This document shows positions 34,980 through 60,360 of a stretch of 64,000 nt of DNA, piece by piece. Position 1 is the first letter of the stretch. Each line of letters opens with the position of its first letter. Source of the stretch: Microbotryum violaceum (Eukaryota); contig CDLV01000019.1 in assembly GCA_001244265.2 (NCBI GenBank), positions 310,001-374,000 of the forward strand, given 5' to 3'. Under the pieces are notes generated by a model. That model saw nothing but the letters and a program-made list of their open reading frames with translations. It had not been told where the DNA came from and ran no database searches. Made by a program: the position numbers and the translations under genes.

Positions 34980-35730
34980 TGGAATCAGATTCCAACTTTA
35001 TGCCCTGCTCCCATCACTGAGGCGGATCGGGCCTTACGGCCTGCTCTTATTCCCGAGCCTGGTGTGCCTTTACTGCCAGCGCTGCCTCAAGTTTCAACTT
35101 CCTCGTTTTCAACGCGGACCATGGTGAGGTCGCTCCTATTCCTGTACCAGCTGGCGGCCCGTTGGCCGAAGGGGTTGAAGACGAAAGAGGAGCCTATCGA
35201 TCATCGACGCGAGGAGGCTGTTGAGGCTGTTAACAGTTACGAAGACGACGACCCTGCGGAGCGTGATCCGCCTCTACCTCCTGACGATGGTCACGAGTAC
35301 CGGCCTTATCGTGTCGGTCGCACCCCGGGCCTGCTCAAGAACATTAACGAGGGCAACACTCTACCGGTTCGCACGCGTGCTCAGCGTCGCGTCGCCGCCC
35401 TCAGTATTGTGTCCACAACCAGAGCTCATCGCTTTGGTTTCCACTCGTCATCCACCGCTTCCCAAGACCTTCAAGGATGCGATGGCTTCGCCCGAGGCCG
35501 AGTCCTGGTACGCTGCGTCGATCAAGGAACTTAACTCCATGGGCTTGCACAAGGTGTTCAAGCTTTCGAGTCCACCTACTGGGGCTCGTGCCCTGGGCTA
35601 TCGTTGGGTGTTTACTCGAAAGGAAGTCGCCGAGGGCAACATCATCAACTACAAGGCTCAGCTAGTCGTCCAACGCTTTGCTCCACGAGTGGGGTTGACT
35701 ACAACAAGACGCTTGCTCTTGTCTCGAATC
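34980..35730 (+). mobile_element. Ty1/copia pol fragment (reverse transcriptase N-terminal part)
   Basis: PKTFKDAMASPEAESWYAASIKELNSM...GYRWVFTRK...YKAQLVVQRF, then frameshifted GVDYNKTLALV. Truncated near 35730. Confidence 0.88.
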
Positions 35731-36128
35731 CTGAGGGGCACGAAGTTTAGGCGCCCGTGCCACTGCATTGCCGGAGGACCTGTCCCTCCAAGCGCGAGTC
35801 TCGACGGTGCAGACAAGCGCACACAGATCACCTTCAAGGAGGATGGTGCGTGCAAATCGCCCGGGGTGCCCATGGACAGTCACGGGGAGTGGCGTCGGAG
35901 ATCCTTCGGCGCACTTGCGACCGGTAAAAAAACCCTTTCGGACATCCGCATGAAATCGACTAGTTCTCCCAAGCGATTCGCCCCCTGTGCATTTTCCCAA
36001 TGACTGCACACACGCTTGTCGGCCCATCCATCAGATCCTGGAGCCTACAAAAGCAAAAATGTAAAGTAGTACTTACACCTTGGGGACGATTAACTGGTGG
36101 TGGGTGAAGACCACCTGCGGCTTCGTCG

Positions 36129-39274: not shown

Positions 39275-42200
39275 GTCCCACGCCGGTCTCTGCGTCGGCT
39301 TGTGCTGGCCGGCTGCCGGGTGCTGGCCTTCCGCGGGAGCCTGTGCTGGAGCCGCGCCCCGCCAACGAGAATTACTAATGTTGAGATTGTCATCAATTTC
39401 CCAAGCCCGCGCCGCCGAATTTCTCTGGAACAAACCTTCAGCTCTAAAGAGCTTCAGGGATAATCCACTGTTGACGTGTTCTCGCTAAGTCCTCTAAAAG
39501 GTCTAAAGGAAAGAGAGACTGTCCAAAGGTACTGCGACAAAATTATTCAAACGAAAGGAGAGCAAGTTGTCTCAGATCGATGTGGCCAGGCCCGTGGGAG
39601 GGGCGCACCCACCACAAGAACCCGCTCGGGTCAAGGCCTGTGCCTGTGGACTCGAACTCGTTGGGCGACAAGTCGCAATCGGATGAGCTGTGGTAGGGAG
39701 CTAGCCAACCAACCTCCTCCCGGACTCCGGTGCTTGTGCTTGGTGACATAAAATACCTTCAAAGCAGCTGAAGGCTTGCCCGCGGCGTGGGATCGTCGTC
39801 GAGTGCTGAGCCTGTGGCAGGGGCCAGGCCGGCCAGGGGCTGCTGAGCAGGACTGCCACTGGGTGTGCATAAAAATAAAAATAGCTCTTAGGTATGGAGG
39901 CAGCTGGTAGAAATTGGGGGGGGGGCTACCCTTACACATAACTTATCTTCCTGCGATCGCACAAATATTGTGTCGAGCGCTGGACGTGCCAGTGGTCGCG
40001 CACTTTCTGGAACGTAATTAGACTTGACAGACGCATCCTAATGTTAAGATAAGCCCTTGGCAGGGACCGCGAATGTACCTGTGAGCTGACCTCGCGCCAG
40101 TCAGACTGCAGTGCTTCGTTCGTCCTTCGATGTGTAGATGCGTCTCACAGTCGGAGCTCGCTGGATTTTCAACGAACCTGCTGCCAGCCTGCCGCTTCGA
40201 TACTCTAGATGATACCTCCTAATGGGCCACTACAGAAACGATCAATTTGCTAACTACCTTCCCCTGCACCTAGTAGTATGTGGCGCCCAAACGGCCTCGC
40301 ACGAACGAACGAACCGTTGCTAGGCAGAAACTGTTATTGAACGGTTCCCTCTTTTTGTGTAGTTCAGAGTGTCATTTACTCAAGTCGACTCCTCCATAGT
40401 GCGCGCTGTTTGTGGCGTTTGTTTTAGGATGGAAGAGTTGAGTTGCAGTGATAAGAGAAAAACCCGCACTCCGTAACAAACGGAGGGTTTTAAACAGGAG
40501 TTATGAACAAGTAGGGTGGGAGGGAGGAGCTCAAAACACAAAATGGTCGATCGGCTTTGCTCAAAGAGCGCAGGTCCGATTAGTAACTAAACACTGCAAC
40601 TGACTTGGGGGATAGGGCATACCTTTGCTCGAAAAGCGCAGGGCGATGGCAGGGGAGGAAGGCGACGCGGTAGGTAGACGCGGCCAAACGAGGTCTGTAT
40701 ACCTCAAGTAGTCTCTCCTTTCTCTCTTCTTGCAGACAACGTCAAAGTTCCCAATACCTCTTCGGTCGAACAGCGATTACCAGAACGATCAGCCCAGTAG
40801 TCGCGACCTTTTCTGTAAGGCCAACACAATCTGCATCACTAACGATCTACAGTACTGATTGTCCTTGAAGTTTTCTTTACTCGGCAAAGTGCGGCATCGA
40901 GACCTATCCTCGACCGAGGGAGTCAACACAAATTCGCACCAACCGGCCGCACGCGGGCGCGCGGGCTGCGCGGCTGCGACCGCCGACGAACGGACGTCGA
41001 CTGCACAGAACAGCGAGGCGCTTGGTCGCTCGTCGAGCGTCTCGTGTTGGCCAAGTAATACGACGAACAGTCTCCGACTGAACGACGTTTGTGCCGATCT
41101 CTATTGATCAATATGAATAATATATAATAAATGGCTTTGGTTTGGGCTTGGGGGCGAGTTCCCTCACGACACCGCCCCGCGAAGAAACCGGCGGGGCAGA
41201 GTAAGCAAGGGGAGGCAAACCGGGGAGGCAGGCGGGAAAGCAAAAATTTATGAAGTTTCGAGCGACCAACAGGCGATGTTGCGAGCGAGAATAGTTGGTT
41301 CTAGCAAGAGGGAGTGATTCACACCGCACTCGCCTTTCGACTCGCTCGGCGGCGCGCCCGTTGGCCGCCTTTGGCAACCGGCCATTTATCTCTGCGGTAG
41401 ATGCTGACGCAAGGAGGAACTGGAAGAATTGGCCTTTTGCCTATCGTCCCCGGATTCTCCCCCGGACTGCCTGTCGACCCGCCGGTCCGTAGGATGGCGG
41501 AAATCAAAAAGCGGGGCCTACCCAGGTACCCAGGTCTGTGGAGAAGGGAACGAAATAATAAGTCGGAGGTAGGCACTTTGGAACGACCTAGACGGTCTGC
41601 GGGCAATCGGATTGAAGTGTCGGGAGTCTGGACGTCTACAGCCTATCAGTCCCGAAGCTGCGTTCTGCATACACTGCAGATACTCACCTACGTAGTACAT
41701 GAACGCTCCGTTCGGCGGCTTTGCCAGAAATTCCGTTCATACGTCCTCATACCTGTGAGATGTCGAGACGTTGTTTCGCATCAAACGTAGCATCCGGCGC
41801 CGGCTTGAAGCGAGATGATCTTCTCACCAGCGGCGAGCGGAGTTTTAGCCCACTCACTTCTTAGAACTCTTCCCTTGCATCGCGTGTGAATCGCTACTTT
41901 TCTCGCTGCTCTTTCTGCGGGTGAGAGCTCATAGTCCGCCGGCTCAACAGAGCTTAACCCGATGGAGTGACATATCGAAGTACACTGCGGTGCTAGTAGT
42001 ACTCTCTTCGCTGAACGTGATTTCAGACGATCGGTCCCATCTTCACCTCAGCTCACTCACGATAGATGCCAGTATTGAGAGGTGACCACTGAGTACTGAG
42101 TGCTGAAGAAGCCCGAAAGTTGTTCGGCTGATCCCGCTCGTGCACCGCTGGACCATGTACTAGGGGCGAGCGCACGCCTGCCGCCGGAGCCTGGCGGCAG

Positions 42201-42295
42201 CTGGTGGCCGAGAATGGCAGGGAAGGCTTGAGCTCGAGCGGTTCCGAGTCGGCCAGTACAGAAAGGTTCAACTGTGTTGCAGGCGGTGGAAACAA

Positions 42296-42955
42296 TTGTT
42301 GACGAACGAGAAACGGCAGCGGCAGAAGCAAGGGAGAACATGGCAGTTGCAAAGCTCCGATAAGCCGAACAGGGCAACAAGGTGCGGAAGCTTGCGGACC
42401 CGGAGTGCCATTTGTCGTCGGGGACAAGGGCTTGCAGTGCAGCGGTCGACTCTCTGGATAGACGCCTGCGGTACACGGCGGATGGGGAAGCACGGTCAAC
42501 CAAGTTCTTCCCACGGTTTGACGGGCCTTATGAAGTTCTCGCAGCACGGCCGGAAACGTCAAACTACAAGCTCAAGCTAACCCCAGGCGACAAGCCGACA
42601 ATGTTTTTCATGTGTCCCTGCGGCGTTGGGTAGCAAACGATGGAGAGGCCTTCTCGGGACGCCATGCAGCCGAACCAGCAGCAGTCATAGTGCAGGGAAA
42701 CGAGGAATGGGAAGTGGGACGGCGACGCATTGTGGACGAAAAGGGGAAAGGCGGAAAAGGAGGAGACTTTTGGTGAAATGCCAGAAGGGATGGGCGGACA
42801 GCGACAACACTTGGGAGCCTCCATCGCATCTGGAGGAAACGGCAGAGATTGGTGGGAAAAGGAGACTCGGGAAGGGGGACAAGGAGAGGATGGGGAGGGT
42901 GTAAGGACGGGAGAGGGTTTGAAATAGGTGGGGGAGAGTGTAAGGATGTGTAAGG
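42296..42955 (+). mobile_element. Ty3/gypsy chromovirus remnant: integrase C-terminus, chromodomain, PPT and LTR start
   Basis: [13 protein letters not shown]...NYKLKL...FHVS; chromodomain pieces EEWEV...[21 protein letters not shown]; purine tracts followed by TGTAAGG. Frameshifted. Confidence 0.85.
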
Positions 42956-42993
42956 CAGGTTGAAGGCGCGGGAGGGCGCGCGCGCGCGCGCGG

Positions 42994-45900
42994 GCGAGGA
43001 GCCCCGAAAGCCCAGCCTGAGGCGCGTAGGTAAGATCCGCGAAAATCCGGGATTTTGGACCTTATTTGTCCACCAATTTTTGGATTTTTCGGCCAAAAAG
43101 GTGCCCCGAATGTCCAGTCCATCTACGCGCCTCAGAAATAGCTCTAAAATTGCTTCAAATACTCTAAAACATCTCCAAAAATCGCGAAAACGCCGTCCGG
43201 ACGTTTTTCGCCCGAGCCGAACCAGCGGAGCCCGCCCGAGCCCGCGCGCGTGTCAGCCGGTTCGGTTCTGCTTCGCCGAGGGCTCCTCACCTGCACTTGC
43301 TGCCTTCCTTTTTGACCCTACATCTTTCACGCCCTTCATTTGATTACTCAAGGACACAGAAGGGTCCCGTAATCCGTTGCAGCGTCGAAGAAAACAAAAT
43401 CTTGCCTCAGCCTGCTGGCTCAAGTCGAAGACACGCTCCCCGAGGTATGCAACTGAATCCAGTGGTGCGAGAGTGAGCGCGGGCATCGAGGATGATTCCA
43501 AGGATTGAATGATTTGTCGAGCATTGAGTCCAAAGAACCGAGTCGTGCCGTCAATCATATGCGTTGAATAACGGCCCTTGCTGACAACTCGCAATTCTTG
43601 GAGGACGACATTCGATAGTAATGCTAGGGAGTTGGTTTCCACTCTGTCACAATGATTTGACGTAGCCTTGGCATACATGTAACGTACTACCAGAGGCAAG
43701 ATCGATGTCAGTCACTCTGCAAAGCAGTAAGCTAGCTACAGTGAGATGCACAAACCAAGTCCAATGGACAATTGTTCTTCTCCTATGTTGCTGGCGTCAC
43801 AACTGACAGGTATGATGCCTCGTTTCAATCTGAAACAGACAAGAGAGCCGATTTTCAAAGGCATGGCTGACGTGACGTTTCCGTCAATCGACCCAAACGT
43901 TGGGATCTTGGCGAATACCGTATATTGCCTTGCTCGCAATTGCATCCGTACCTGGGCAAGAATGAACATTATTGATGGGCACTCTCCGGGCCATATGTGC
44001 AGAGCACACAATTGAAGCTCACTTCTTTACGTCCGTCTTCGATGTATCCTATGTTGTCCGTCTCGTTTGCGGTCGAAAAGCGACTGAAGGTCCCTTGTCC
44101 GGTCCAGCGAATGGACCTCGCGACTCCTGACACGGCTTCGAGACGGGCTGCACCCATTGATTGCACTAAGCCTCGGAGGACACTGGAGTGCACTTCCTCG
44201 TGCTCGGACAATTTTGCTTTTGATGTGGGATCGGAATCTTGGGCAGTCGAGGTGGTGGCGCCGTGTCTTCCCTTGAGTAGGACAGCTCTGAGGTGGGCAC
44301 ATTGATGGGCCCGACGGTGCGGGATTAAGCTTTTCAGATCAAGCGCAAGCTGACGAGAGTCGTGACGCAGAATGGATGGGAGCCGAATAATTTGAGCCTG
44401 TGAAAGAATGCTGGTTCCGTTTAGTGTTGCTACACGAGAACAACTGCTGCTTAAATGAACCTACATGACCCGGCAAGCTTTCATTTGCTGTCACAATGGC
44501 GTCGAGCAGGAAGTGTTCCTCTGCTTGAGCATCGGCCTCGTCATAGGCCTGCTGAACGGCAAGCCTAACATTGGACGAGATGAGTTATCAGGTCAGGGGA
44601 GACTGGTACAGGTCTCAAGGCACTCAACTTACAGTGCAGCATCATTGTCAAGGCCAAGAGCAGCTAAAGAGCGAACAGCGTTTTCAACTGACTTCCGCTC
44701 TTTCGGGTCCAGCACGACGAGACCTTGGCACGTTTTGGTGCGGATCCCATCGAGGGTCCGCTCTAGGTCAGCGAGGTACGAAAGCGGGTCAGCGTCCTCG
44801 GGCTCGAAACGCCAAGGTTCACTAGCTGGAAGGGGCGACATCAATCAGCTTTGCTCAAAACGAAGCCACAAGCTTGGGCGACACCCACCATTGACCGGTA
44901 TATCTTCCTCTAGCTGGTTGGACTTCTGATATTGTATGGTATCCCACATTCGAAGACCAAGAAGAAGCTCTTTTGCAAGTCCTGCAGCAACCAAGCTTGT
45001 GGACCGAATCTCTTCATCGCTTGGATAAGTCCGCATTGCGACGAGGTCGAGATCGTCGAGCCTGTCATACATGTGATGGTAGCCTTGACGCGAGTCTGCG
45101 GTCTCTGTCTTGAGCTTTCGCATCAGTCCTAGAAGCGCAGTAACTTTGCTTGCCGACTAAAAACCCGAAATATAAGCTTTACAAGCAGTAGCTCACGGGA
45201 ACCCATGAAAGGAGGATTATTTACCTGCAGGAATTCTAAAGCATCAAATTCTTGCACGACTTTGCGCAAACCGCCAAAAAAAATGCTCGACCATCTCCGT
45301 ACCATGTCGCCATGGTATGAACGCTTCTTCCGGCCAAAAGTCGCGGTAGTTCCGAATAAGGGCGATGTTTGCATCGACGACCTTTCGCATACCATCCAGG
45401 GTCTCCTTGGCAATAAAGGACTGCACGTTGTACCCGGGACGATTGCGGACGAAGGTCAACCAGCCCTCAAATGTATAACGAACCGTCAATAGCATCTTGA
45501 TACGTTCAATCGGCTGCAAGGACCTGTTTTGTATCGCGTCGTGAAACTCGCCGCAGAGAAAGAGGAAGACTATGACATCGGCATCGAATTTGCCGTCCTC
45601 GTAAAGTCGGCAAGCAAGCGCTAGAGTAGCTTCGGAGAACGCTCGATGCGTCGCATTGTCATCTTGACGATCACGTCCAGTCACATCACGTAGATACAAG
45701 GTCCTCGCCGACTCTTCGACGTTGAGCAGCGTCAACAGGTCACGATATCCGATACATCCGGTGCCGCCGTATATTGCCCTGGCGCCTGAATCGCACGCGC
45801 TGCGGAGATTTTTGCTCAGGTGCTTTTCGTCCCGATTGAAGCACGTAGGCGTGTTGCCCACTTGAACGGATGCCAGTCGAATGGCTGGGAAGACTTTGTC

Positions 45901-48900
45901 GGGACCTGGAGATGGAATGACATGTGCGAGCTCTCGCCGACGGTTCCCCTCTCCGGTATACCCCTCATCGCCGCCAAGTCGCTCTGTCATGACGCGCTGC
46001 AAGACGCCTTCGCTTGCCGCCGGATCCGCCGAGATGGAGGCAAGAAGATGACCTAGCCCAGCGTTGACAAGGAATTGAATAACTGATTCCAATTCATCCG
46101 CAGCCTCGGATGAGCTCGTCGAGTCGCCAATCACGAATGCGGCAAGGTATTGGGCTGGGCAAGAGACATCGTTTGGTGCAAGCATGTACACTCGAACCTA
46201 TTCACAGAAGCGCCAGCAAATGAGCAACCAATTAAAGCGACGCGCAGACATAGTCACCGACCTTGGTGCCAGCGATCGGAGGGTTCGGTCCCCGAAAGAT
46301 ACCCTCGAGCTCCCGTGTGGTTTCATACACGATTGGCGGGTCAACCATGCCAATGAGCTCGTGACGAAAGATTTTCTGGCCGCGCAGGCGATCTTCCGCC
46401 TTCTTGTCCTTCGAATAAATCCGTGTTGTCCTGATTACTTGTCGCAGTTTCGTGTCGTCGACATGCAGGTTGAAGGTCTTTCCATCCGAAAGGATCTTTT
46501 GGATAATGCGCTGCATGTGGGGCTCATCCAAGCCGAACCTGGGCTTTTCGAATGTTGCTCGATGTTGCCTGAGAGGTTTAGAATCGCCAGTAGCCTGAAG
46601 GAATGACGGATAGCTCAGGTCTGAAACTTGCTGAAGTGTGCGCATCGAGACTCCGCCGACAATTTTTTGCACCACGCGCAACGCCGTGGGAGATGCCAGA
46701 GCCAGCGCGTGTTCAAAGTCGAGCAAAGCTTCGTCTCGCACATAGCCTCTCATGTCCTTGCCTTGTGCGTCCCGCCTATGCTTGATCACGGCGACTTTTG
46801 CCATACCTTTCAGAATGTTGGCTCCAGCCAGCTCGCCGGAAACTAAACCTTGAGCGAAACGAAGATAGACCTTGCCATCTTTGGTCCCTAAAAGTTCCTC
46901 CAGACCTTGGTGTTCCTTGAAAACCTTTGACATCAAAGCCTCGACGGAAGCCAATCGTTTATTCGTGAACTTGATTGTGGGTCCGACAGCCCGAGGACGA
47001 TGTAACGCCTGTGAGAAGGCTTTCGTGTGAAGCAGTGCCTTGCATTTGGCGCAAGACTCCAATTTCGTTCCACATTGCGACTCCATTCCGATCCTGGTAC
47101 AGTTGACACTGTTCACTCGGGGTGCTGAATGATCGTTCACCCACGTCCACTCGTTCGCTTCCAGATTGTTGATCTCACGGCGTTCAGAACGAGTCAATAC
47201 ACGTTTGCCAATTCTTGGGAACCTTCTCTTGATGAGCTTTAGCCGAGATGGTGCGCCTCCGCCTCGAGCAGAGCTCTTTGAGAGGTACATCTCTACACGC
47301 TTGCCTGTTAAGCCGGGACATGCGGGAGGATCGGTAAGGCTTTTGCCTTGCGACTGGACAGCCGTTTCGGCGGGCGATCGAACAGCAAAGTAGTGGTCGA
47401 TCTTGCGCATGTTCGTGCACGGAGGCTTTTTGTTGAGATGCTTCATGAAGCGAGTGACGCCGTGCCGTGTCTTCATCTTTTGATACGTACGACAGCGACC
47501 GCACTGCACCATCCTGGGATTCTCGATCTTCACGTCCGATCCTGGGCAGAGCTGCTTGACCTTCGCCCTAAACTCAGCAAATGCTGCGGGGCGAGCCTTC
47601 GAGTATTCGACGTCTTTAAGATGCTCCTTGGCTAGTCTGACTCGTCGTGCTGTGATTGATTCCCCCGACTTCGGAGTTTCGTCGTCCGTGGTGCAATCAT
47701 CGTCCGTGGTGCAATCGTCGTCCGTCTCGGAATCTGAGCAGAAGCATATCCCGGACCATGTCTGCTCGTCATTATCGATCTCGGCCATCTCCTCGACGTC
47801 CAACTCGTTCCTGTCTATGCCGGCAATGGGCGCGGGAAAGTCATGAGTGAGATGTTGAGATTTGGTTGCGAATGTTGCTAGTCGGTGAAACTGGCGAATG
47901 CGAACGATATGAGCGCGACCGGCCGAAAAAGGTGGAACCAAAAGAAGCTCGGTTTCGACGACATTGATAGCCGCTGGTCCGCACGAGGAGCCGTCAGCCT
48001 GTTGAGCCATGCGGCCTTGCTTCGGTTCAGTGTTGAGAATATGCAGCTCGAGGTAGTCAAACAAGGCCAGTGCCGAGTTGCGAGTAATCTCGTCGATCCG
48101 AATATGCGAGAGCGAGTTGAAGAGCGTCCATGTCCTTTGCCCAACATCAACACGTGCCATTGCCCAATGATCGCGAAAGCAGAGCGGGAGAAACCAGACC
48201 GATTGAGGGCGAGCTCTAACGAAAGATCGAAGGTCGGCGAGAGTTCGATATGGGACAAGAGGAGATGCGAAGATGTACTTGTCCAAGACTTCACGTTGAG
48301 GGGAGTCAGATTGATGTTTTCTTGAAGCGACCAAAATCGCCATGAGATCGGATGGGAATGCCCCGTATACTTTGTCGGGTGCTGTTGACGCTTGTACACG
48401 CGATGAAGCTAGTACGCTTGTGATGGCAACGTCCATCGCGGTTTCTCCAAGCCACGTTGTCCCTAGAAAAAGCACGAAAAATAATCCCAATCAATCACGT
48501 GATCGAACAAATGAACAAATTGGCTGCTTACCGACGAAATCGAGCAGCGTGCGCAAGGACGCGCTACACCCGAGGATCATTGAGGGGGTATATTGGTCCT
48601 CAACGAGCAGTGACGGCAGCACCTCCAGAGCCTTAACGATGAGAGGCTGATTTTCGATATCGACACCCAGATAACTTTTCATCCACTCTTAGCTATTGAT
48701 AACGACCGAACGCATGCGCTCGGCGTAATCTATATGCCACCAGATCCTTTCGACACCGAAAGGCAGCCGGTGCCCGGTGATAGCGATAGACCGGTAACCT
48801 TGTTTACGTGCCGCAGTGATTGCTTCACGATCCTTGAACTTGTCCCTCCAAGCGCGGAGCGGCCTAGGAAGAGTATCAAACTCGAGAGGCTCGTCTGTCG

Positions 48901-49481
48901 ACCACGAAAGCTGTATATGCGTGTCTGGGTTGTCGAAGCGGAAGGTGAGAAGCTCAGACACCCTGACGTCCAAAAGGGGTGCCATCCGCTCAAAATCATC
49001 GTCAAGGAGCTCGATATCCGGATCGTCCAGATACATTTCGTCAAGGCTGACTGAAGCGAGAACGTAGGATAATGACGATGTTGGCACAGACGACGCAACG
49101 CGGGAAGGCAAGAGACGCGCGCAAGGCTCAGACTTTTCGTTCATCCAGCCAAGTGGCTATAATTGCAAAATCGTTTAACCAGCCAAGAGGCTATAATTGC
49201 CAATTAGAGCCCTTGCTGTTACTTCGGTACAGCCCAGAGTGTTTCCCACGCGCTCCGCACGTTCTTGAGGGTCGGCAAACTTTGGCGTACCAAGCCGAAT
49301 GTGGCTGAAATGGGTCCCCGATTTGTCCACAGGCACCTACGGGCCTAGACCCCACCCGCACCGGCGCGCCCTGATTTGTCCACCCCCGACTACGCGCCTT
49401 CGCAATTTTGGCCCATCTGAGGCCCAAAAGTTGTCCAGTCGGGCACTACGCGCCTCAGGCTGGGCTTTCGAGGGTCCTCGC
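42994..49481 (-). mobile_element. DNA transposon of about 6.5 kb with (sub)terminal inverted repeats, encoding a P-element-like transposase
   Basis: Perfect 25-bp inverted repeat 43005-43029 / 49446-49470, extendable to 34/36 bp, bracketing one multi-exon minus-strand gene. Exact outer ends and TSD not resolved. Confidence 0.8.
43253..49144 (-). pseudogene. Ulp1/C48-like protease plus Cys/His region plus P-element/THAP9-like DDE transposase; one in-frame stop and one frameshift
   Basis: Protease: WL..., HWAMARVD, FNSL, QQADGSSCG. Transposase: LHVDDTKL, ISADPA, DEKHLSKNLRS, DRQDDNATHRAFS, TEMVEHFF(GGLRK). Lesions: TAA at 48689-48691 and an A8 run at 45276-45283. Confidence 0.75.
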
Positions 49482-49773
49482 GGGCGCCTAACCCTTATAA
49501 TTAGGAGAAGAGGACGCGCCCTTGGGCCAAGTTAGTCTCTCCTTAGCGACTAACGTGAAGTGTCCAGGTGAGGTCAGGTGGATCAGGAAGCATTGCCATA
49601 GCAACGACTAACGTAGAGTGTCCAGTGTCAATCCTACATACTTTGGTCCTGTTCTTATTCGGCTCGAGCGGTTCCACTGCGCCCAGCGACCTGCCCCTGC
49701 GACAGTCTCCTGCACCTATCCAGCGACCTGTGCGCCTACGACTGCGGACCTCACACCTACCACGGAATTCACC

Positions 49774-52371
49774 ATGAGCAAGCGTAAAGGTAAAGGACGA
49801 GAGGCCGATCCGCCGTTGGCGTCCGCGGCATCGCTATGCCGGACCGGCGGTGGCATCGACGCCACGGTGGGCGTAGACGCCGCGCCATCAGCGACTCTGA
49901 TCCCCAAGTCCCACCACAACAACGTACGACACGGACGCGGACCTCTGATCCGCGACTCGGATGATGACATGGCCATCGATGATGAGCAGGACAGTACACG
50001 TCGTCGCGGCGCTGACTACGACCACGACATCGAGCCCGACCTCAACGAGGGAACTCGCTTGTTGGTGGACCGTGCACGTGACGAGGCGGAACGGGGCGCC
50101 CTGCATCAAGACTCTGGCCTCGATTCCGATCGACGACGGCTCAAGCCCTCGCCAGGGCCAGTCGTTCGATCTTCCAGCAACAAACTCAAAAGGCGTAGAG
50201 GAGATTCAGCAGCCCCATCGCAGCCGCAGCCGGAGTCACTGCACCGTTACCGCAGTCGCCGGGCCTTCGGAGCGCGCGAAATTGGGTGCTATCTGCTCGG
50301 GATCCTCGCCTTCACCAGCTTGCTTACGCTCGCTGTCGCCCATCTATGGATTGGTCACCTTGTCTCGGAGCAGTCTAAGAAGGGCGATCTGAAGCAGATG
50401 ATGCAGCGTGGGCTTATCGTCCAAGGGCCTACCGCTGTGCGTATGACCGATGGCGATCCCAGTGACGGCTCAGCGTTTGTACTCGAATTGGATCTGCTCG
50501 CCGGCGTCGACGTACGGAGAATGATCGGCTGGGACGATAAGCAACACAACAAGAACTGGGTCCGGCGATTGGAGGATCGTATGGCCTCCTGGCTGACGAG
50601 ACGACTCGACACGGTCAACGTCGATGTGGGTCGAATCGCAATCCGAGAATCTTACACGACTGAGCACCATCGAGGTGCCGCGCAGGCAAGACAGGGCTCG
50701 GCTTTGGTTGTCCTTGATCACCTCGCGCCCCTTTTCGTTCCGTTGACCTATTCCCGAGATTTGAGTGAACCTAGGCTGGGTGCACTCGCTCTGCAGCTCC
50801 CTGTCACCTTGCCGAACCCCGACGACCTGAAGGAGGTAGCGCACAAGATTTGGGATCACCGCAAGTATGATTTGGAGGTTCAAGTCGACAATATAGCCGT
50901 CATCTTTGACGGCACCCGTGGAAGCGGCATCTTCGGAAAAATTCTGCGTCGCCTCAGTGGCAAAATGAACATCGCAACCGTTTCGCGACAAGTTGCGGGC
51001 ACTGGTAAGTGCGCACTCTCCGTAGCTGCCAAAGCTAGGCGACGGCCGAGCTGAGGCTGATGCTTCCGGTGTGACTCCTTAGTACCCGTTCTCCCTGCCG
51101 CTTCAGACCCTGCATCACTCATCGAGGTGCTCTTTTACGATATTGCCGAGCAACCTGGTCCGGACCCCAACACGACCGTAATGGGCCTCACCGGCAGAGC
51201 ACGGCTGACGAACCCAGTGGCGAACGCGACAGAGCGAGGGGAAATTCCAGCTTTCGCGTGGGGCATGCCCTTCCGTCTCCCCATGGATGTCCTGCTGCCG
51301 ACTCCTCCGGCAACGGTTCCTCCGCTGGCCCCCGGAGCCAAGTACGCGGAACGGGACGAAGGCATCTTGCTCGCCAAGGTTGAGGTCGCACCTTTCCATT
51401 TCGCGGCAGGGCAAGAAACGTCCATTGTTTCTTTATCTGGTCATCTCATCCGAGCCGACAGTCGTATCGAACGATCAGATAAGGACAAGGAACTCTCGGG
51501 CGCTCTCAGTCGGTTCTTGGCGCGCTACCTGGATGGCAAGAAGAATCAAATTCTGGTTCGTTACGATGTGAAGGCAAACGACGGTAACTCGCCCGACGGC
51601 AAGCTGGCGCCTTTTCCACCCAGGATTGTCGCTGGCTTGGTCGAGGATGTGACAGTGCCGTTAATCTTCCCAGGCTCGCAAGAAAAAATGCAGCTGTTCA
51701 AGAACCTCAAGATCGAAGACATGAAGATCAAGCTTTCTGGCATGTATCGTCCCCTCGCCCACGCCCTGAGCCTGTGGGGAAAAGGCGAAGGCGACGAACC
51801 CGAGGGCGATTTGCTTTGTTCCGGCAGGGTGGTGGGCGAGATCGACTTACCGCCGCAGTTCAAGAAGGTCGAGATGTTCCTCGACGTCAATGGTATCTGG
51901 CCGGACGTGTACGTGTATGATGGAGACCTGCCCCAACCGGTTAGGCTCAGGCGACGCGATCAGGTCATCTTTGGCGCGCACGATCTTGTGGGGCAAGAGG
52001 TCGCAGTCAAAGCTTCTCGATACCCTCCGAAGCCGACGCCTGCAAACGCCTTTGCACGTCTCCATCCTTCCTCACTGATCGTCGCCTCGACGATCCACGT
52101 ACCTGCGAACCGAACGCACAATGCGACAACGCTGATCTCGGCCAATTTCACTGATGCACCCTTGTTCCTTCTTCCTGGCCGAGGCGACGTTTTCCGACGG
52201 TTCGTCGGCAAGATCATTTTTGGTGGTCCTGGCGCCAAGGCGAGAGCGGGAGTGAGAGGCGTCAGCGCTGCAACGCTTGGTGTGGGTGGGCTAGGATCGA
52301 TTGCTGTGGAAGGATTGCCGGTCGAGGGGGAGTTCTGGGTCGGCAGCGGGGGAGCCGGATTGGCCGAGTGA
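49774..52371 (+). CDS. single-pass membrane protein, Tag1 (YLR173W)-like
   Basis: Disordered N-terminus, TM segment YLLGILAFTSLLTLAVAHLWIG, beta-rich remainder (LDVNGIWPDVYVYDG, APLFLLPGRGDVFRRFVGKIIFG). Intron near 51005-51082. Family call tentative. Confidence 0.6.
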
Positions 52372-53603
52372 GCCCGTAATCGGCTTTGTACTATTAGAGG
52401 ACATGCAAAACTCTGCGTGTCGTAGGTTTTCGATTATTTCGGTAGACATGTGTGTATAGAAGTACCCCTTGTGACATTTTTGTTCGGCATTCCAGTACGG
52501 TTAATCCTCGGGCTCTGTTCTAGCCAAACAGTGAGAAAACAAAGAAGAGGACACCAGACGGAGCCGCTGTGCAACGCGGTCTGATGCGTACACATGAGAA
52601 AAAGAGAGAGAAAAAGCAAACACAGCGAACCCCCACACAGCCCCACTTCATCTCCATCATCCCCATCCCTACGGTCCCGCCGCGTTGCCTGGTTTCGGCC
52701 GAGCCAGAAATTCGAAGCTCAGCTCATAAGAACGTCATTCACTGTCCGTATTGTGAGCACCTGGTAGGTGTTATCAGGTAAGTACACCGCCTGACGCCCT
52801 GCCTGCAGTGCCTAGTCCTCATGCAGTGGCGGAGCTTTGATCACACGCGCGCTAGAATAGCAACGTCCTAACGCCGCGGAGAAACGATCCAGACTCCAAA
52901 CCCCGCTACGGGGATCGAGGCCCGGTCGACACCGCAATCAAGCTCGTGGCAAATGTTCCGACGTCCGACAGTTGGAACGCGATGGCTCAGAGTTTTATTA
53001 GGACCTGGACATATCTCGGCTTCGCACAGAACGGCATCCGAAAATGCTTGGGTCTGGTGCCTTGGGTCGGTAGTAGGGATGGTAGTTAGATTCTGGACCA
53101 CTTCCCTGCAGTGCAGGGAACGCCCGCCACGGCCTCTTGGCGGCCGGGGTCCGTTCAAAACGCCGATTTATGCTTGAGAGCGGCCTGAAGCCAGCGCGCC
53201 GGCGCCGTTGCGGCGTCGCGCGCAAATTCCGATGTTGCGGTCTAGTCTTTCGCTCCTTCACACGAGGCTCTAGCACACGAGGCTCTCGCAATTCAACACA
53301 TCGGTTACCAGCCCGCTTGCCCAGGATCCCAATCTACCACTCCGCTTGCCAGTGCGGCTTACTCCTACCTGGTCCTACCTTCTCCTCCCTCTTCATTCCG
53401 GTATATTTTTAGTTGTTATCATCGTGAGTGCTCAGCTTCGACCGGGCGACGATGCTAGTCAGGTTCACAGTGGGCGTCTGCAACTCCTCGCGCTAACTCT
53501 GACGGTTCTCATTCAGTCGACGGGGCGCGACACCGAACCCAGTCTCCCACAACAGACCCCGCCTCGATTCTACACACAACAAAACACTTGCCCTTCGCAC
53601 AAC

Positions 53604-54653
53604 ATGTTCATCAGTACTCTTCCCATCGCGGCATCGATCTCACGCTCGCCCTTGGACCCCTTACTCCGACGAGAAAGCTTTGCGAGCTCGCACGCACGGG
53701 AAGGCCCCTCAACGGCAGCTCGGCCCGAAGTTGTGCCGGGGTCGGCCTCGTACCCAGGCGCCCATACCAACTCCACCCCGGAAATTCATCAAATTTACCG
53801 TCGCCAGTCCACTTTGAACTCGTTCCCCACGTTGCCTTCGAGATTCGAATCGGACCTACCTTCGCGTCGAACGCAGTCCATGTCCGGCCCGCTCCGTCCG
53901 GGTTCTTCGATGACGACGCCCGCGACCTCCGCGCAGGTCTATGCTCGATTGTACGAGACGTTGGTGGAAAGGTGTTCCGAACGTGCAAGGTCGATTGCTG
54001 CTAGCTCTTCTCGTGACCAGGCCGACCAAAGGCTACCCAGCGTCGAGAGTGAGAATTCGCAAACGAGGAAACGCCGCCAAATGGAGGAGGATACCGTCGA
54101 CAGTGACTCGACAGCGGAGGCGAACTCTTCAGCAAAGAAGACACGACTCGAGGAAGAGCGATTCGAGGAAGAGGAAGAAAACCTGGATGCGATCAAGGAG
54201 GAAGAAGAGGAGATAGTCATGCGCGGGGCCGCGGGCCAACCGAAGGCAGAAGTTCAAGAGCGACCCTGCTCGGCACCACCATTGTTGCCCTCCCCCATGA
54301 CGAGGTCAAAGACGAAGCTCGCCAACCCTGCTGCATCGGACGACGCGTTAAGAAGGTCCATATCACCTCTGGGTAAATCCCACAAGCTTTCACCCCGTCG
54401 AGCTGCGTCACCACACGTTCTCTGCCGTCGCATCATCGCTTCTCATCGTGGCTCCGCAACGGGAGTCAAGTCCACGCGGCACCAGCCCGTGTTCGAAGGT
54501 CCTCGCCACTGCACTAGCACAAGACCGTGTCGCTCCGAGGCTCTCTTGGGTGTTCTCAAAAGCTTCGAACTTGTCTTGCAGACTCGGGCCCAAGGATGGA
54601 GGTTGCTAGCTGTAGAAGGGGAAAAAATTGAGCTGCGCCGAGGCGGACCGTGA
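53604..54653 (+). CDS. hypothetical low-complexity protein with acidic/basic tract
   Basis: Long uninterrupted ORF with first ATG at 53604; no domain recognised. Confidence 0.55.
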   Translation: MFISTLPIAASISRSPLDPLLRRESFASSHAREGPSTAARPEVVPGSASYPGAHTNSTPEIHQIYRRQSTLNSFPTLPSRFESDLPSRRTQSMSGPLRPGSSMTTPATSAQVYARLYETLVERCSERARSIAASSSRDQADQRLPSVESENSQTRKRRQMEEDTVDSDSTAEANSSAKKTRLEEERFEEEEENLDAIKEEEEEIVMRGAAGQPKAEVQERPCSAPPLLPSPMTRSKTKLANPAASDDALRRSISPLGKSHKLSPRRAASPHVLCRRIIASHRGSATGVKSTRHQPVFEGPRHCTSTRPCRSEALLGVLKSFELVLQTRAQGWRLLAVEGEKIELRRGGP

Positions 54654-58544: not shown

Positions 58545-60360
58545 TTACTTCTTCGCCTCCTCGACCTTCTTGGTGAGTTCGGGGACGGCTTCGAAGAGAT
58601 CGGCAACGAGCCCGTGGTCGGCGACTTGGAAAATGGGAGCATCCGGGTCCTGACAAAGGCGCGGAAAATAGCAGGATATGTCAGTCACGACACACTTCAA
58701 TATAGTAGAAGATCTTACCATACCTTGTTGATGGCGACAATTGTCTTCGAGTCCTTCATTCCTGCCAAATGCTGCAGAGCACCACTAATCCCGACGGCAA
58801 CGTAAAGGCTAGGAGCGACGACTTTCCCCGTCTGCCCGACCTGCTGCGAGTTGTCGGCGTAGCCCGAGTCGACGGCGGCTCGAGAAGCTCCGACGGCGGC
58901 TCCGAGCGCATCGGCGAGAGGGAAGATGATCGAGTCGAAGCTTTCCTTCGACTTCACCCCTCGACCACCGGAGACGACGGCTTGTGCCGAGCCGAGATCG
59001 GGACGCTCCGACTTTGTTAACTCTTCCGAGACCCATGCGGCTTGTTCTGCAAACCATCGTGAATAAACAGAGTAAGCTCCTGTGAGCCTCGATGCACTCT
59101 TTCAGGAACTCGCGACTTGCCTTTTCCAACCTCCTCGGCAGCTTTGGCATCGACTTCGGTCGCACCCTCGCCACTGACTGCGGCATCCCAAGAGGCCGAT
59201 CGGACGGTGAAGATCTTGATGCTGTCCGAAGATTTGACGGTTGCGATGGCGTTACCGGCATAGATTGGTCGTACAAAGGTGTCGGGCGACTCGATCGCCA
59301 TGACATCCGAGATCTGCGCCCATGTAGGGTAGTCTCAAGCTTCGGTCAGATCTTTCGACTATCTCCGAAAGAAGGACGCGAGGCGCAGACCCCTCCGACT
59401 CACCTGCTGGACGCCCAAAATACCCGCTACTCGAGGGAAGATGTTCTTACCCTGTGCCGAATGAGCGGCGGTGAGATGGGTATAGTTGCCCGACTTGACG
59501 AGCGCGGCGAGGACGGGCGCCAACGGTTCGGCGAGAGCGTGGGCCAAAGCAGGCGATGTTCGGTGCAAGAGGGCATCGAGCCCAAGCCTGGTGTTATAGA
59601 GAGATGTAGATAGAATATCGGTGAGACTGTCGTTCGGCGTGCTGAAATGGCCACTGCACTGTGAAGTACCACACCCAGTCCGATCTCCGAGGGGCGAGGC
59701 CAGGATGCGCCGGGGTTTGTCTACTTCGTTCCCGTGATGGGAACTGGTAGTGTTTTCCAGCCTCTTCCGAACCCACGCATATCCTATGCCACGTGGCCCT
59801 GCTGTAACAGGGTGTGCTGTGCACCGAGCTGCTTCCGGTCCGGACCGACGGCTGCTGGAAGCACTCCCACGACAGCTCATGACAGACGATGGAGTCCTCA
59901 TGGGATTGCACCGGCCCAAGAGCGTAAGATCCCCACGCGGTGATACAACGACAATCACTTGGTGACGTGCACTCGCAGCGGCACTACGACCGTTGATTTG
60001 GTTGCCGACCGCCCAGCGTCGTTGTCGCCGTCTCGCGCGTCCGAGTCGTCATCGAGTAGTGGACTGCCCGCGCTGCGTCGAGTAGCGAGCGAGCATGCTC
60101 TCTCGAAGAGAGCGAATGTCGAATCTTGGAACTTACTTTTGAGCACCCTCCACGACGGCCTTGGTCGAGGCCTCCTCACCCACGACGAGACCCGTGACGG
60201 TGCCGCCAAGCTTCCTCGCGGCGGTGATGGCGTTCAGAGAAGCCGGAACGATCTTGTCGTCCTTGTGCTCGATCAGCACCAACGCCGAGGGGGATGGCGG
60301 CGTGGCGTACGAGCGACGCGCCAAGGTGAAAACTCTAGAAGCGGAGGCGAAGCGCTGCAT
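58545..60360 (-). CDS. ETFA: electron transfer flavoprotein subunit alpha, mitochondrial
   Basis: Presequence [94 protein letters not shown]. Confidence 0.96.

What the first reader, a model, noticed from the sequence alone, without database searches (positions are those of the whole stretch)
42994..49481. Near-intact fungal DNA transposon whose transposase carries P-element/THAP9-type motifs
Seen: inverted repeats bracket one intron-split gene of about 5.9 kb. Its core has, in order, LHVDDTKL (about 46445-46468), ISADPA (about 46018-46035), DEKHLSKNLRS (about 45800-45831), DRQDDNATHRAFS (about 45633-45672) and TEMVEHFFG (about 45272-45298). Established, from memory of the Drosophila P transposase: FDEM (D1), SDLG (D2), the D-x2-H motif DTPHLIKLVRN, KQKVKLATQLFS in the GTP-binding insertion, and QDIVEHFFS (E). 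Order and pattern match. P-superfamily elements are regarded as rare in fungi, and I do not recall a named basidiomycete family with this architecture. Inference: a little-described P-like lineage lacking an obvious THAP domain, with its own long C-terminal extension.
Basis: partly seen in the sequence, partly recalled or inferred. Interest (0 to 1): 0.85.

Follow-up and report, generated by a model that had tools for sequence, protein, structure and literature searches.

The report
P-element-like transposon with Ulp1 protease domain
This is a 6.5-kb jumping gene in an anther-smut fungus whose enzyme folds like the fruit-fly P element transposase but carries a SUMO-protease-like domain instead of the usual animal DNA-binding domain, and it belongs to a large, unnamed family in mushroom-forming and related fungi.

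Summary
The element spans 42997-49478 (6,482 bp). It has 33-bp terminal inverted repeats (31/33 identical) and an 8-bp target-site duplication, CGCGGGCG. Contigs of other copies in public runs diverge from the window exactly at these ends. One minus-strand gene (10 exons, 9 introns of 63-71 nt) gives a conceptual 1,762-aa protein. This copy has two lesions: an in-frame TAA and one extra T in a T8 run.

An AlphaFold model of the 94%-identical Microbotryum protein matches Drosophila P element transposase far above all else. VIA gives Z 28.4 with 394/442 residues aligned; the next best is Transib at 12.8, and Hermes scores 10.1. Foldseek gives E 3e-12 against 1.8e-3 for the next hit. The D, D, D(2)H and E positions are nearly invariant across 120 relatives.

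There is no THAP domain. The family is multi-copy with internal-deletion derivatives, and at least 464 sequence clusters match it; every relative that carries an organism name is a basidiomycete.

HMMER does not link it to P transposase, apart from weak HTH hits. P elements are already recorded in rust fungi (Repbase), so this is a new variant, not a new kind.

The parts
42997..49478 (-). Whole transposon copy (6,482 bp); the gene reads on the minus strand, so 49478 is the 5' end of the element
   Evidence: contigs of other copies become unlike the window 'before' 42997 (3 contigs in X14) and 'behind' 49478 (4 contigs in X14, 1 in X20). Depth inside the element is 150-2000, against about 18-27 in the flanks (X1, X12). 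One search gives the TIR and TSD.
42989..42996 (.). Left copy of the 8-bp target-site duplication CGCGGGCG
   Evidence: identical to 49479-49486 and directly abutting the element ends defined.
49479..49486 (.). Right copy of the 8-bp target-site duplication CGCGGGCG
42997..43029 (+). Terminal inverted repeat at the 3' end of the element (33 bp)
   Evidence: 31/33 identical to the reverse complement of 49446-49478.
49446..49478 (-). Terminal inverted repeat at the 5' end of the element (33 bp)
43123..43132 (+). Subterminal copy of the 10-mer CTACGCGCCT, candidate transposase-binding motif. Other copies lie at 43020-43029(-), 49337-49346(+, 1 mismatch), 49390-49399(+) and 49446-49455(+)
   Evidence: all 4 exact matches in the 64-kb window, and 5 of 7 matches allowing 1 mismatch, lie in the two element ends. 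One search shows the surrounding repeats 49316-49346 / 49369-49399 and 42997-43015 / 43099-43117. The binding role is inferred.
48532..49144 (-). Exon 1 (start codon assignment approximate); N-terminal region shared with family members
   Evidence: aligns to P0003 residues 14 onward.
48689..48691 (-). Lesion 1: in-frame TAA (codon 152) inside sequence that aligns without a gap to the paralogue P0003
46632..48462 (-). Exon 2: Ulp1-like domain, Cys-rich region and most of the HTH region
   Evidence: The preceding intron is 48531-48463 (GT..AG, 69 nt).
47876..48462 (-). Ulp1/C48 peptidase-like domain. His (HWAMARVD, 48169-48146) and Cys (DGSSCGP, 47995-47975) are present; the Asp position reads Asn (FNSLS, 48121-48107)
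   Evidence: PF02902 E 0.0025, below the cut-off, on this copy; family profile against yeast Ulp1 1euv_A, E 8.4e-18. PF02902 at E<=1 in 30 of 37 long relatives. One search gives the coordinates.
47030..47506 (-). Cys-rich region between the protease and HTH (QCGRCRTY..H..C; ACPGLT; WVNDH; CAKCKALL); presumed zinc-binding DNA-binding module that stands where THAP would be
   Evidence: C358, C391, C464, C480 and C483 are nearly invariant; only a weak zf-BED hit in one relative (P0017, E 0.033).
46486..46813 (-). Helix-turn-helix region preceding the catalytic domain (interrupted by GC-AG intron 46631-46569)
   Evidence: model residues 41 onward align to P transposase chain residues 138 onward. 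PF12017 hits in 5 of 37 relatives; one, P0044, scores 25.9 bits, above the 23-bit cut-off.
46262..46568 (-). Exon 3: carries beta1 with LHVDDTKL (first catalytic Asp, conceptual residue D852)
   Evidence: D conserved in 76/77.
45225..46197 (-). Exon 4: rest of the RNase H fold. Contains the second Asp (SAD, D975, 46032-46018), D(2)H (DEKH, 45831 onward), the helical insertion domain, and Glu on alpha4 (TEMVEHFF, E1221, 45300-45276)
   Evidence: D 115/116, D 117/119, H 119/119, E 109/114.
45276..45283 (-). Lesion 2: T8 homopolymer (A8 on the plus strand) giving a +1 frameshift right after EHFF
   Evidence: table 4: one base fewer here in contigs of all four runs (X1 138.4/138.4, X12 147/147, X14 15.4/19.9, X20 15.2/15.2). 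The frameshift is therefore private to this copy or an assembly error.
43253..45156 (-). Exons 5-10 (45156-44889, 44825-44633, 44564-44465, 44397-44023, 43951-43756, 43686-43253 including the stop): end of the catalytic domain (GYHHMY motif) and a roughly 500-aa C-terminal extension
   Evidence: this part of the model is low confidence, mostly long helices.
44725..48441 (.). Segment missing from an internal-deletion (non-autonomous) derivative present in all four sequencing runs
   Evidence: table 5: joint 44724->48442, skipping 3,717 bp, in X1 (2 contigs), X12 (1), X14 (1) and X20 (2).

Best explanation
The feature is one copy of an autonomous class II (cut-and-paste) DNA transposon of the P superfamily, in a Microbotryum-type basidiomycete genome.

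Its single gene encodes a conceptual 1,762-aa multidomain transposase with these parts, in order:
- an N-terminal Ulp1/C48-like cysteine-protease domain
- a Cys-rich, presumably zinc-binding region
- a helix-turn-helix domain
- an RNase H-like DDE catalytic domain (D852, D975, E1221 in conceptual numbering), split after beta5 by an all-helical insertion domain that begins at a D(2)H motif
- a roughly 500-aa C-terminal extension

Inferred mechanism, by analogy with the P element: the transposase binds the 33-bp TIRs and the repeated subterminal CTACGCGCCT motifs. It pairs the ends, excises the element with its DDE site, and integrates it with an 8-bp staggered cut that produces the CGCGGGCG duplication. 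The insertion domain probably plays the role of the P element's GTP-binding domain; whether it binds GTP is unknown. The Ulp1-like domain is likely an accessory that acts on SUMO or ubiquitin-like conjugates during transposition; this is speculative.

This particular copy is probably dead, with one nonsense codon and possibly one frameshift. The family is multi-copy, and it has deletion derivatives that would depend on intact copies.

Shown: the ends, TIR, TSD, multi-copy status, deletion derivatives, gene structure, fold match and residue conservation. Inferred: catalysis, binding sites, the GTP role and the protease role.
For: Structure. The AlphaFold model of P0002 (94% identical to the window's exon 4; pLDDT 76.9, mostly 84-98 per 10-residue block over residues 40-540) was compared with solved structures.
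- Foldseek: P element transposase 6p5a_A at E 3e-12, prob 1.00, TM by target 0.67. Next best are Hermes at 1.8e-3 and RAG1 at 2.3e-3.
- VIA-align: Z 28.4, rmsd 3.7 A, 394 of 442 residues, model 41-538 against chain 138-565. Next best are Transib 12.8, RAG1 11.3, Tn5 11.1 and Hermes 10.1.
- The aligned chain range includes the insertion domain 339-528 and D230, D303 and E531 (numbers from PMC8230255).
- The model puts D138 on a strand (133-141), D261 right after a strand (255-260), D326-x2-H329 right after a strand (319-325), and E507 on a helix (504-516).

Conservation among relatives with a residue at the column in alignment A2: D138 76/77, D261 115/116, D326 117/119, H329 119/119, E504 112/116, E507 109/114.

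Independent language-model and structure look-up. After the query's own Basidiomycota cluster at rank 1, which has no common Pfam family, all other listed named clusters carry PF21787, PF21788, PF21789 or PF12017. Scores run 0.95-0.85. TM by query is 0.72-0.80 to THAP9/P clusters.

Pfam. PF12017 (P-element HTH) was hit in 5 of 37 long relatives, one above the curated cut-off.

Mobile-element features.
- 33-bp TIR and 8-bp TSD.
- Ends fixed independently by contigs of other copies.
- Element depth is about 10-100 times flank depth, and 815 contigs were laid in X1.
- A 3,717-bp internal-deletion form occurs in all 4 runs.
- Paralogous gene models on several contigs of M. silenes-dioicae and in M. 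lychnidis-dioicae.
- An 8-bp TSD is called characteristic of fungal P elements in PMC3164196.
Against: - HMMER finds no sequence-level link to P transposase. Family profiles A1 and A3 do not hit the 6P5A chain even at E<=10.
- The Pfam catalytic models do not reach significance: PF21787 appears in 1 of 37 relatives at E 0.14, and PF21788 and PF21789 in none. The window's own ORFs hit no transposase family at E<=10.
- The assignment therefore rests on a predicted structure of a close paralogue, not of the window copy, and on language-model features.
- Identity to 6P5A is only 13-15%.
- No residue-level superposition was available, so the clustering of the three acidic residues and the GTP pocket were not checked.
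- There is no THAP domain.
- The termini (AGGAG...) do not match the CANRG ends that I recall for P elements; that motif is recalled, not checked.
- An 8-bp TSD is also typical of hAT elements.
- The copy carries a Pro at the nearly invariant Gly next to the second Asp (ISADPA against ISADGA in P0001 and P0002; G in 113/116).
Confidence: 0.85

Rival explanations
1. It is a separate, so far unnamed DDE superfamily that shares an ancestor with P elements but should not be filed within the P superfamily. It would be a sister group, defined by the Ulp1 fusion, the Cys-rich DNA-binding region and its own signature string.
For: There is no HMMER-detectable similarity of the catalytic core to the P transposase chain or to Pfam TNP-like models. 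Identity to 6P5A is 13-15%. The N-terminal architecture differs and THAP is absent. Spacing is D(122)D(245)E here, against D230/D303/E531 in DmTNP.
Against: The fold match covers HTH, RNase H and insertion domain together at Z 28.4, about 16 Z units above any other transposase. The D(2)H motif, the [D/E]-x-x-E-H-F arrangement (E504/E507; D528/E531 in DmTNP) and the 8-bp TSD are shared. PF12017 hits occur in 5/37 relatives. Atlas neighbours are all P/THAP9 clusters. Superfamily limits are partly a matter of convention.
Confidence: 0.09
2. It belongs to another known insertion-domain DDE superfamily (hAT, Transib/RAG-like, MULE, Kolobok, CACTA/Plavaka, KDZ/Zisupton), and the resemblance to P is only the general one among such transposases.
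For: [C/D](2)H motifs and helical insertion domains are shared by several superfamilies. An 8-bp TSD also fits hAT. Several superfamilies have no solved structure, so a fold search cannot show them.
Against: Hermes scores Z 10.1, Transib 12.8 and RAG1 11.3, against 28.4 for P. Foldseek E-values differ by nine orders of magnitude. No Pfam hit to hAT, MULE, CACTA or KDZ families appeared at E<=1 in 37 relatives, or at E<=10 in the window ORFs. In the Atlas look-up, the listed named clusters after the query's own are all of the P/THAP9 set.
Confidence: 0.04
3. It is a domesticated, single-copy host gene derived from a transposase, not a mobile element.
For: Catalytic residues are strongly conserved across distant fungi. 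Gene models are annotated as ordinary hypothetical proteins.
Against: The element has TIRs and a TSD. Depth is multi-copy and hundreds of variant contigs were laid. Internal-deletion derivatives occur in four runs. Many paralogues exist per genome. This copy has a nonsense codon and a frameshift.
Confidence: 0.02

Closest known systems
Drosophila melanogaster P element transposase (PDB 6P5A/6PE2)
   Same: - HTH, a split RNase H DDE domain and an all-helical insertion domain in the same order. Fold match Z 28.4 with 394/442 residues aligned.
- A D(2)H motif directly after beta5.
- An acidic residue three positions before the catalytic Glu (E504/E507 here; D528/E531 there).
- TIR of 33 bp (31 bp there) and an 8-bp TSD.
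   Different: - Only 13-15% identity, with no HMMER-level similarity.
- No THAP domain or leucine zipper was detected. Instead there is an N-terminal Ulp1-like domain and a Cys-rich region.
- The protein is 1,762 aa, roughly twice as long or more (the solved chain is numbered only to residue 565).
- The beta1-to-beta4 spacing is longer (122 against 72 residues).
- GTP dependence is unknown.
- The element is 6.5 kb with 9 short introns.
Human THAP9 / zebrafish Pdre2 (P-derived transposases)
   Same: Same superfamily signature (DDE plus [C/D](2)H plus insertion domain). Atlas structure TM by query is 0.72 to the chordate 'THAP domain containing 9' cluster.
   Different: THAP9 carries THAP and the Pfam TNP-like domains at significance, and is a single-copy domesticated gene. 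The fungal protein is encoded by a multi-copy element and lacks THAP.
Repbase fungal P elements: P-1_PSt (Puccinia striiformis), P-1_MLP and P-2_MLP (Melampsora larici-populina), and P from Allomyces
   Same: These are P-superfamily elements in Pucciniomycotina, the subphylum of Microbotryum, with 8-bp TSDs and autonomous plus non-autonomous forms (PMC3164196, passage read; PMC5751038 Table 1).
   Different: Their sequences and domain content could not be inspected, because there is no Repbase access. It is unknown whether they carry Ulp1 or belong to the same clade. No rust protein appeared among the named relatives seen here.
Other transposons that carry Ulp1/C48 domains (plant and animal MULEs, Ginger1, oomycete CryptonF/CryptonS)
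   Same: A Ulp1-type cysteine-protease domain is encoded by the element, in some cases fused to the transposase (PMC2836005; PMC3212892).
   Different: Those elements use Mutator, Ginger (integrase-like) or tyrosine-recombinase enzymes. In Ginger1 the Ulp1 domain is C-terminal, whereas here it is N-terminal to a P-like core. The passages read in these two papers list no P-superfamily case.

Membership tests
P superfamily (P element / THAP9 transposases) | RNase H-like catalytic domain with Asp on beta1, Asp at or after beta4, and Glu on alpha4 | tested here: met
   Model secondary structure: D138 lies in strand 133-141, D261 follows strand 255-260, and E507 lies in helix 504-516. Conservation is 76/77, 115/116 and 109/114. 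Clustering of the three residues in 3D was not checked, because coordinates are not exposed.
P superfamily (P element / THAP9 transposases) | Helical insertion domain between beta5 and alpha4 resembling the P element GTP-binding domain | tested here: met
   VIA gives Z 28.4 with 394/442 residues aligned over chain 138-565, which contains the insertion domain 339-528. The model is helical over residues 327-501. This shows fold similarity only.
P superfamily (P element / THAP9 transposases) | [C/D](2)H motif directly after beta5 | tested here: met
   DEKH sits at 45831-45820 in the window. D326 is conserved in 117/119 and H329 in 119/119, after strand 319-325. The motif definition comes from PMC8230255. 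The motif is not exclusive to P.
P superfamily (P element / THAP9 transposases) | 8-bp target-site duplication and terminal inverted repeats | tested here: met
   CGCGGGCG lies on both sides and the TIR is 33 bp (31/33). The ends were fixed by other copies' contigs. Only this one insertion was examined for the TSD.
P superfamily (P element / THAP9 transposases) | Sequence-level match to the curated catalytic models (PF21787, PF21788, PF21789) or to the P transposase sequence | tested here: not met
   None of 37 relatives reaches the cut-off; there is one PF21787 hit at E 0.14. The window ORFs give no hit at E<=10. Profiles A1 and A3 against PDB sequences give no 6P5A hit at E<=10.
P superfamily (P element / THAP9 transposases) | P-type helix-turn-helix domain (PF12017) before the catalytic domain | tested here: inconclusive
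   5 of 37 relatives hit PF12017 (E 1.4e-5 to 0.1); only P0044 exceeds the cut-off. The window copy gives no hit. The structural alignment starts at chain residue 138, in the HTH region.
P superfamily (P element / THAP9 transposases) | N-terminal THAP zinc-finger DNA-binding domain | tested here: not met
   There is no THAP hit at E<=1 in 37 relatives, nor at E<=0.1 in the window ORFs. The review PMC7776569 states that THAP domains are restricted to animals, so this feature cannot define fungal members.
P superfamily (P element / THAP9 transposases) | GTP as a required cofactor | not testable with these tools
   This needs biochemistry. The only indirect hint is an acidic residue (E504, 112/116) at the position three residues before the catalytic Glu, where DmTNP has the GTP-contacting D528.
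hAT superfamily | hAT dimerisation domain (PF05699) or related Pfam families, and a Hermes-like fold | tested here: not met
   No hAT-family Pfam hit appeared. Hermes scores Z 8.5-10.1 and rmsd 6.5-8.0 A, against Z 28.4 for P. The 8-bp TSD alone is compatible.
KDZ / Plavaka-CACTA / MULE | Match to their Pfam transposase models | tested here: not met
   No such family was listed at E<=1 in 37 relatives, or at E<=10 in the window core ORFs. No solved structures of these groups were available for a fold test.
Ulp1/C48 peptidase (domain) | Catalytic His, Asp and Cys in the conserved order | tested here: inconclusive
   The family profile against yeast Ulp1 gives E 8.4e-18. The window has His (HW) and Cys (SSCG). 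It has Asn where the profile and Ulp1 have the Asp of 'DSLS' (FNSLS, 48121-48107); P0001 and P0003 also have Asn there. Activity is unknown.

The most novel reading that the evidence does not exclude
This copy may represent a large, still unnamed clade of P-superfamily transposons that is widespread in Basidiomycota. The named relatives seen here are Microbotryomycetes, Tremellomycetes and many Agaricomycetes. There are at least 464 clusters at 50% identity.

In this clade the animal THAP module is replaced by a Cys-rich region, and a Ulp1-type SUMO/ubiquitin-like protease is fused to the N-terminus of the transposase. Because its catalytic core escapes the Pfam TNP-like models, domain-based surveys have scored P elements as 'single occurrences' in fungi.

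In Microbotryum the family looks recently active: near-identical copies, deletion derivatives, and consensus copies without the frameshift. It could provide the first non-animal system for asking whether GTP-dependent transposition is ancestral to the superfamily.
Probability: 0.45. Interest if true: 0.65.

Novelty: new variant of a known kind. Interest (0 to 1): 0.5.

Why it matters
P elements are a classic model of transposition, with an unusual GTP-dependent mechanism known only from animals. In fungi they are regarded as almost absent: 11 domain-bearing copies in the genomes surveyed by Muszewska et al. 2017.

If this family is a true P lineage, three things follow:
1. P-type transposases are common in basidiomycetes but invisible to current domain models. 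This affects TE annotation, where many copies are filed as hypothetical or 'ubiquitin-like protease' genes.
2. The superfamily tolerates wholesale replacement of its DNA-binding module and fusion to a SUMO-type protease. That adds a fourth transposase class to the recurrent Ulp1-transposon association.
3. A fungal, intron-poor, apparently young element becomes available to test whether GTP use and the long staggered cleavage are ancestral features.

Tried and rejected
- Whole-genome copy analysis: no genome is held for this window.
- Pfam on the window ORFs: no transposase family, only a sub-threshold C48 hit.
- Family profiles against PDB sequences: only Ulp1/SENP proteases, no transposase.
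- Profile search of the protein collection with A3: only 12 hits, 10 of them Microbotryum and 2 unnamed, because candidates were capped at 8,000. It gave no bridge to canonical P proteins.
- A profile-profile (hhalign) test against P/THAP9 was not possible, because no P/THAP9 sequence could be obtained from any tool.
The fold of the presumed DNA-binding region is therefore undetermined.
- Expression: no RNA holder was listed. Run X20 is only guessed to be RNA, and no joint matching any of the nine introns was listed for it. Nothing can be said about transcription.
- Literature. Searches for Ulp1 together with P element or transposase in fungi and for P/THAP9 in basidiomycetes found no description of this architecture. 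Search listings and abstracts were read, plus passages of PMC2836005 and PMC3212892.
- The Microbotryum TE papers (PMC4469406, PMC10502011; passages only) speak of 'TIR elements' without superfamilies. Their supplements, which may classify this family, were closed.
- Yuan & Wessler 2011 and Ghanim et al. 2019 are not held.
- RIP-like decay: TCG density is 24.4/kb in the element and 26.0/kb in the first 40 kb of the window. There is no marked depletion, and this was not pursued.
- Rejected readings: hAT, KDZ/Plavaka and a domesticated gene (see the rival explanations).

Full report
**What is in the sequence**

A 25-mer from it occurs exactly twice in the 64-kb window, against none expected in 100 shuffles. 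All five peptide motifs lie on the minus strand at the stated places.

**Host and relatives**

The closest proteins are Microbotryum gene models: M. silenes-dioicae P0001 (1,375 aa, 95% over exon 4) and M. lychnidis-dioicae MVLG_06469 (P0002, 862 aa, 94%). An exhaustive phmmer search with the 317-aa exon-4 ORF found 464 cluster representatives at E<=1e-3, of which 296 reach 1e-10.

All relatives that carry an organism name are basidiomycetes:
- Microbotryum species
- Phenoliferia
- Naganishia
- Mycena
- Thelephora
- Amanita
- Marasmius
- Trametes/Pycnoporus
- Agrocybe
- Ceratobasidium
- Cylindrobasidium
- Hohenbuehelia
- Arthromyces

All are annotated as hypothetical or 'ubiquitin-like protease' proteins, except one UniRef name, 'THAP9-like helix-turn-helix domain-containing protein' (P0044).

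**Element ends, TSD and copy number**

No genome is held for the window. I therefore laid Logan contigs of four public runs, from four coded organisms, on 41500-51000.

- Flank depth is about 18-27 in X1 and X12, while element bins reach 150-2000. In X1, 815 contigs were laid; 225 of them are at least 99% alike. Depth is not a copy number, but the element is clearly repeated.
- Contigs of other copies stop resembling the window 'before' 42997 (3 contigs in X14) and 'behind' 49478 (4 contigs in X14, 1 in X20). Their loose ends are dissimilar to one another, meaning they come from different flanks.
- With these ends, the TIR is 33 bp (31/33 identical), and the element is flanked by the identical 8-mer CGCGGGCG.
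- The element inserted at the edge of a (GC)n tract. This is why the repeat finder extended the arms by 9 nt.
- A joint 44724->48442, skipping 3,717 bp including the whole catalytic core, is present in all four runs. Smaller variants also occur: 44710->48457 in X1, and 43184->49412 with 10 other letters in X12. These are the internal-deletion, non-autonomous derivatives expected of a class II element.
- The 10-mer CTACGCGCCT has all four of its exact window matches in the element ends, and 5 of 7 matches with one mismatch. It lies within larger subterminal repeats. These are candidate transposase-binding sites; that role is inferred.

**Gene model**

Guided by P0001, P0002 and P0003 and by splice signals, the gene has ten exons between 49144 and 43253. 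The nine introns are 63-71 nt long: eight GT-AG and one GC-AG (46631-46569).

Read through, the gene gives 1,762 codons. Only two lesions are present:
- A TAA at codon 152 (48691-48689). It lies in sequence that aligns without a gap to the paralogue P0003, so it is a nonsense mutation and not an intron.
- One extra T in a T8 run (45276-45283), directly after EHFF. In all four runs a contig has one base fewer at 45276 (table 4). The frameshift is therefore private to this copy, or is a homopolymer error of the assembly.

The copy also has Pro where 113 of 116 relatives have Gly, next to the second catalytic Asp.

**What the protein is**

Pfam does not recognise the core. An AlphaFold model of P0002, built with an 80-sequence alignment, has mean pLDDT 76.9, and most 10-residue blocks between residues 40 and 540 score 84-98.

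| Search | P element transposase (6p5a_A) | Next best |
|---|---|---|
| Foldseek against PDB | E 3e-12, prob 1.00, TM by target 0.67 | Hermes 1.8e-3; RAG1 2.3e-3 |
| VIA-align | Z 28.4, rmsd 3.7 A, 394 of 442 residues, model 41-538 on chain 138-565 | Transib 12.8; RAG1 11.3; Tn5 11.1; Hermes 10.1 |

The aligned stretch comprises the HTH, both halves of the RNase H fold and the insertion domain. The domain limits and the residues D230, D303, D339, D528 and E531 come from PMC7776569 and PMC8230255 (passages read).

In the model:
- D138 is on a strand.
- D261 follows a strand.
- D326-x2-H329 follows the next strand and opens a helical region.
- E507 is on the helix after it.

These positions are nearly invariant among up to 119 relatives: D138 76/77, D261 115/116, D326 117/119, H329 119/119, E507 109/114. 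E504, three residues before the Glu, is conserved in 112/116; DmTNP has the GTP-contacting D528 at the corresponding spacing.

An independent look-up in the ESM Atlas agrees. After the query's own Basidiomycota cluster, all listed named clusters carry PF21787, PF21788, PF21789 or PF12017, with scores 0.95-0.85. TM by query is 0.72-0.80 to THAP9/P clusters.

At sequence level the support is thin:
- PF12017 (P-element HTH) is hit in 5 of 37 long relatives, once above the cut-off.
- PF21787 is hit once, at E 0.14.
- Family profiles do not hit the 6P5A chain even at E<=10.

**Other domains**

- The N-terminal third contains a Ulp1/C48-like domain. The family profile matches yeast Ulp1 at E 8.4e-18, and PF02902 is hit at E<=1 in 30 of 37 long relatives. 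On the window copy the hit is sub-threshold (E 0.0025). His and Cys are present, but the Asp position is Asn in the Microbotryum copies.
- Between the protease and the HTH lies a region with nearly invariant cysteines. It has no significant family match, and its fold could not be predicted.
- No THAP domain was found. This agrees with the statement that THAP is restricted to animals (PMC7776569).
- After the catalytic domain there is a conserved GYxHTY motif and a roughly 500-aa extension, poorly modelled and mostly helical.

**Comparison with what is known**

P-superfamily elements have been reported from Allomyces and from rust fungi. Cantu et al. [quoted passage not shown] Muszewska et al. 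2017 list 17 fungal P entries in RepBase, from Pucciniales and Allomyces only. They found just 11 domain-bearing copies ('single occurrences') using PF12017 and PF12596 (PMC5751038, Table 1 passage).

Ulp1 domains are known in MULEs, Ginger1 and Cryptons. My searches found no paper that links Ulp1 to a P-type transposase. Repbase itself and the papers' supplements could not be consulted, so the rust elements may or may not share this architecture.

**Verdict**

The element is best filed as a P-superfamily transposon of a divergent, THAP-less, Ulp1-fused basidiomycete lineage (confidence 0.85). The main alternative is that specialists would rank it as a sister superfamily. It is a new variant of a known kind. 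It is moderately interesting for TE classification, and as a possible fungal model for P-type, perhaps GTP-dependent, transposition.

Noticed in passing
window 42364-42633 (+): A fragment resembling the C-terminal SH3/chromodomain part of a Tf2-1/Ty3-type integrase (PF24626, E 1.8e-4, below the cut-off) lies just left of the element. The transposon sits next to a retrotransposon remnant.
   Followed up: partly
window 42966-42996: A GC-rich (GC)n-like tract forms the insertion site. The 8-bp duplication CGCGGGCG is its last part, which made the apparent inverted repeat 9 nt longer than the true TIR.
   Followed up: yes
window 49479-49650: The first ~150 bp to the right of the element are also at high depth in the sequencing runs, with loose ends at 49616 and 49652. 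Another repeated sequence therefore abuts the element. Single-copy contigs start at 49623.
   Followed up: no
window 49137-49203: Two tandem copies of a 33-nt unit (88% alike) containing GGCTATAATTGC lie directly upstream of, and overlapping, the presumed start codon (49144, minus strand). They may be a promoter or regulatory repeat of the element.
   Followed up: no
window 35179-36003 (+): ORF with a weak Copia-type reverse transcriptase match (PF07727, E 1.9e-5, below the cut-off): another TE remnant in the window.
   Followed up: no
window 49612-54653 (+): Three long ORFs (480, 436 and 459 aa) directly right of the element have no Pfam match at E<=0.001. The first starts in the repeated stretch next to the element.
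   Followed up: no
window 4117-32759: Ordinary host genes surround the region: a Zn(2)Cys(6) factor, COG5, glucose-6-phosphate dehydrogenase and an amino-acid permease. An ETF subunit lies at 59359-60048. The element is therefore in gene-containing DNA, not a pure repeat block.
   Followed up: partly
P0001 (M. silenes-dioicae) compared with window 46459-46457: The annotated M. silenes-dioicae copy has Glu in place of the first catalytic Asp (LHVEDTKL). Its gene model also splices out the conserved CPGLT segment, so that copy or its annotation is imperfect too.
   Followed up: no
window 47680-47720 (minus strand, exon 2): The window copy has a tandem duplication of six codons (DDDCTT DDDCTT) relative to P0001, in the acidic linker after the Ulp1-like domain.
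   Followed up: no
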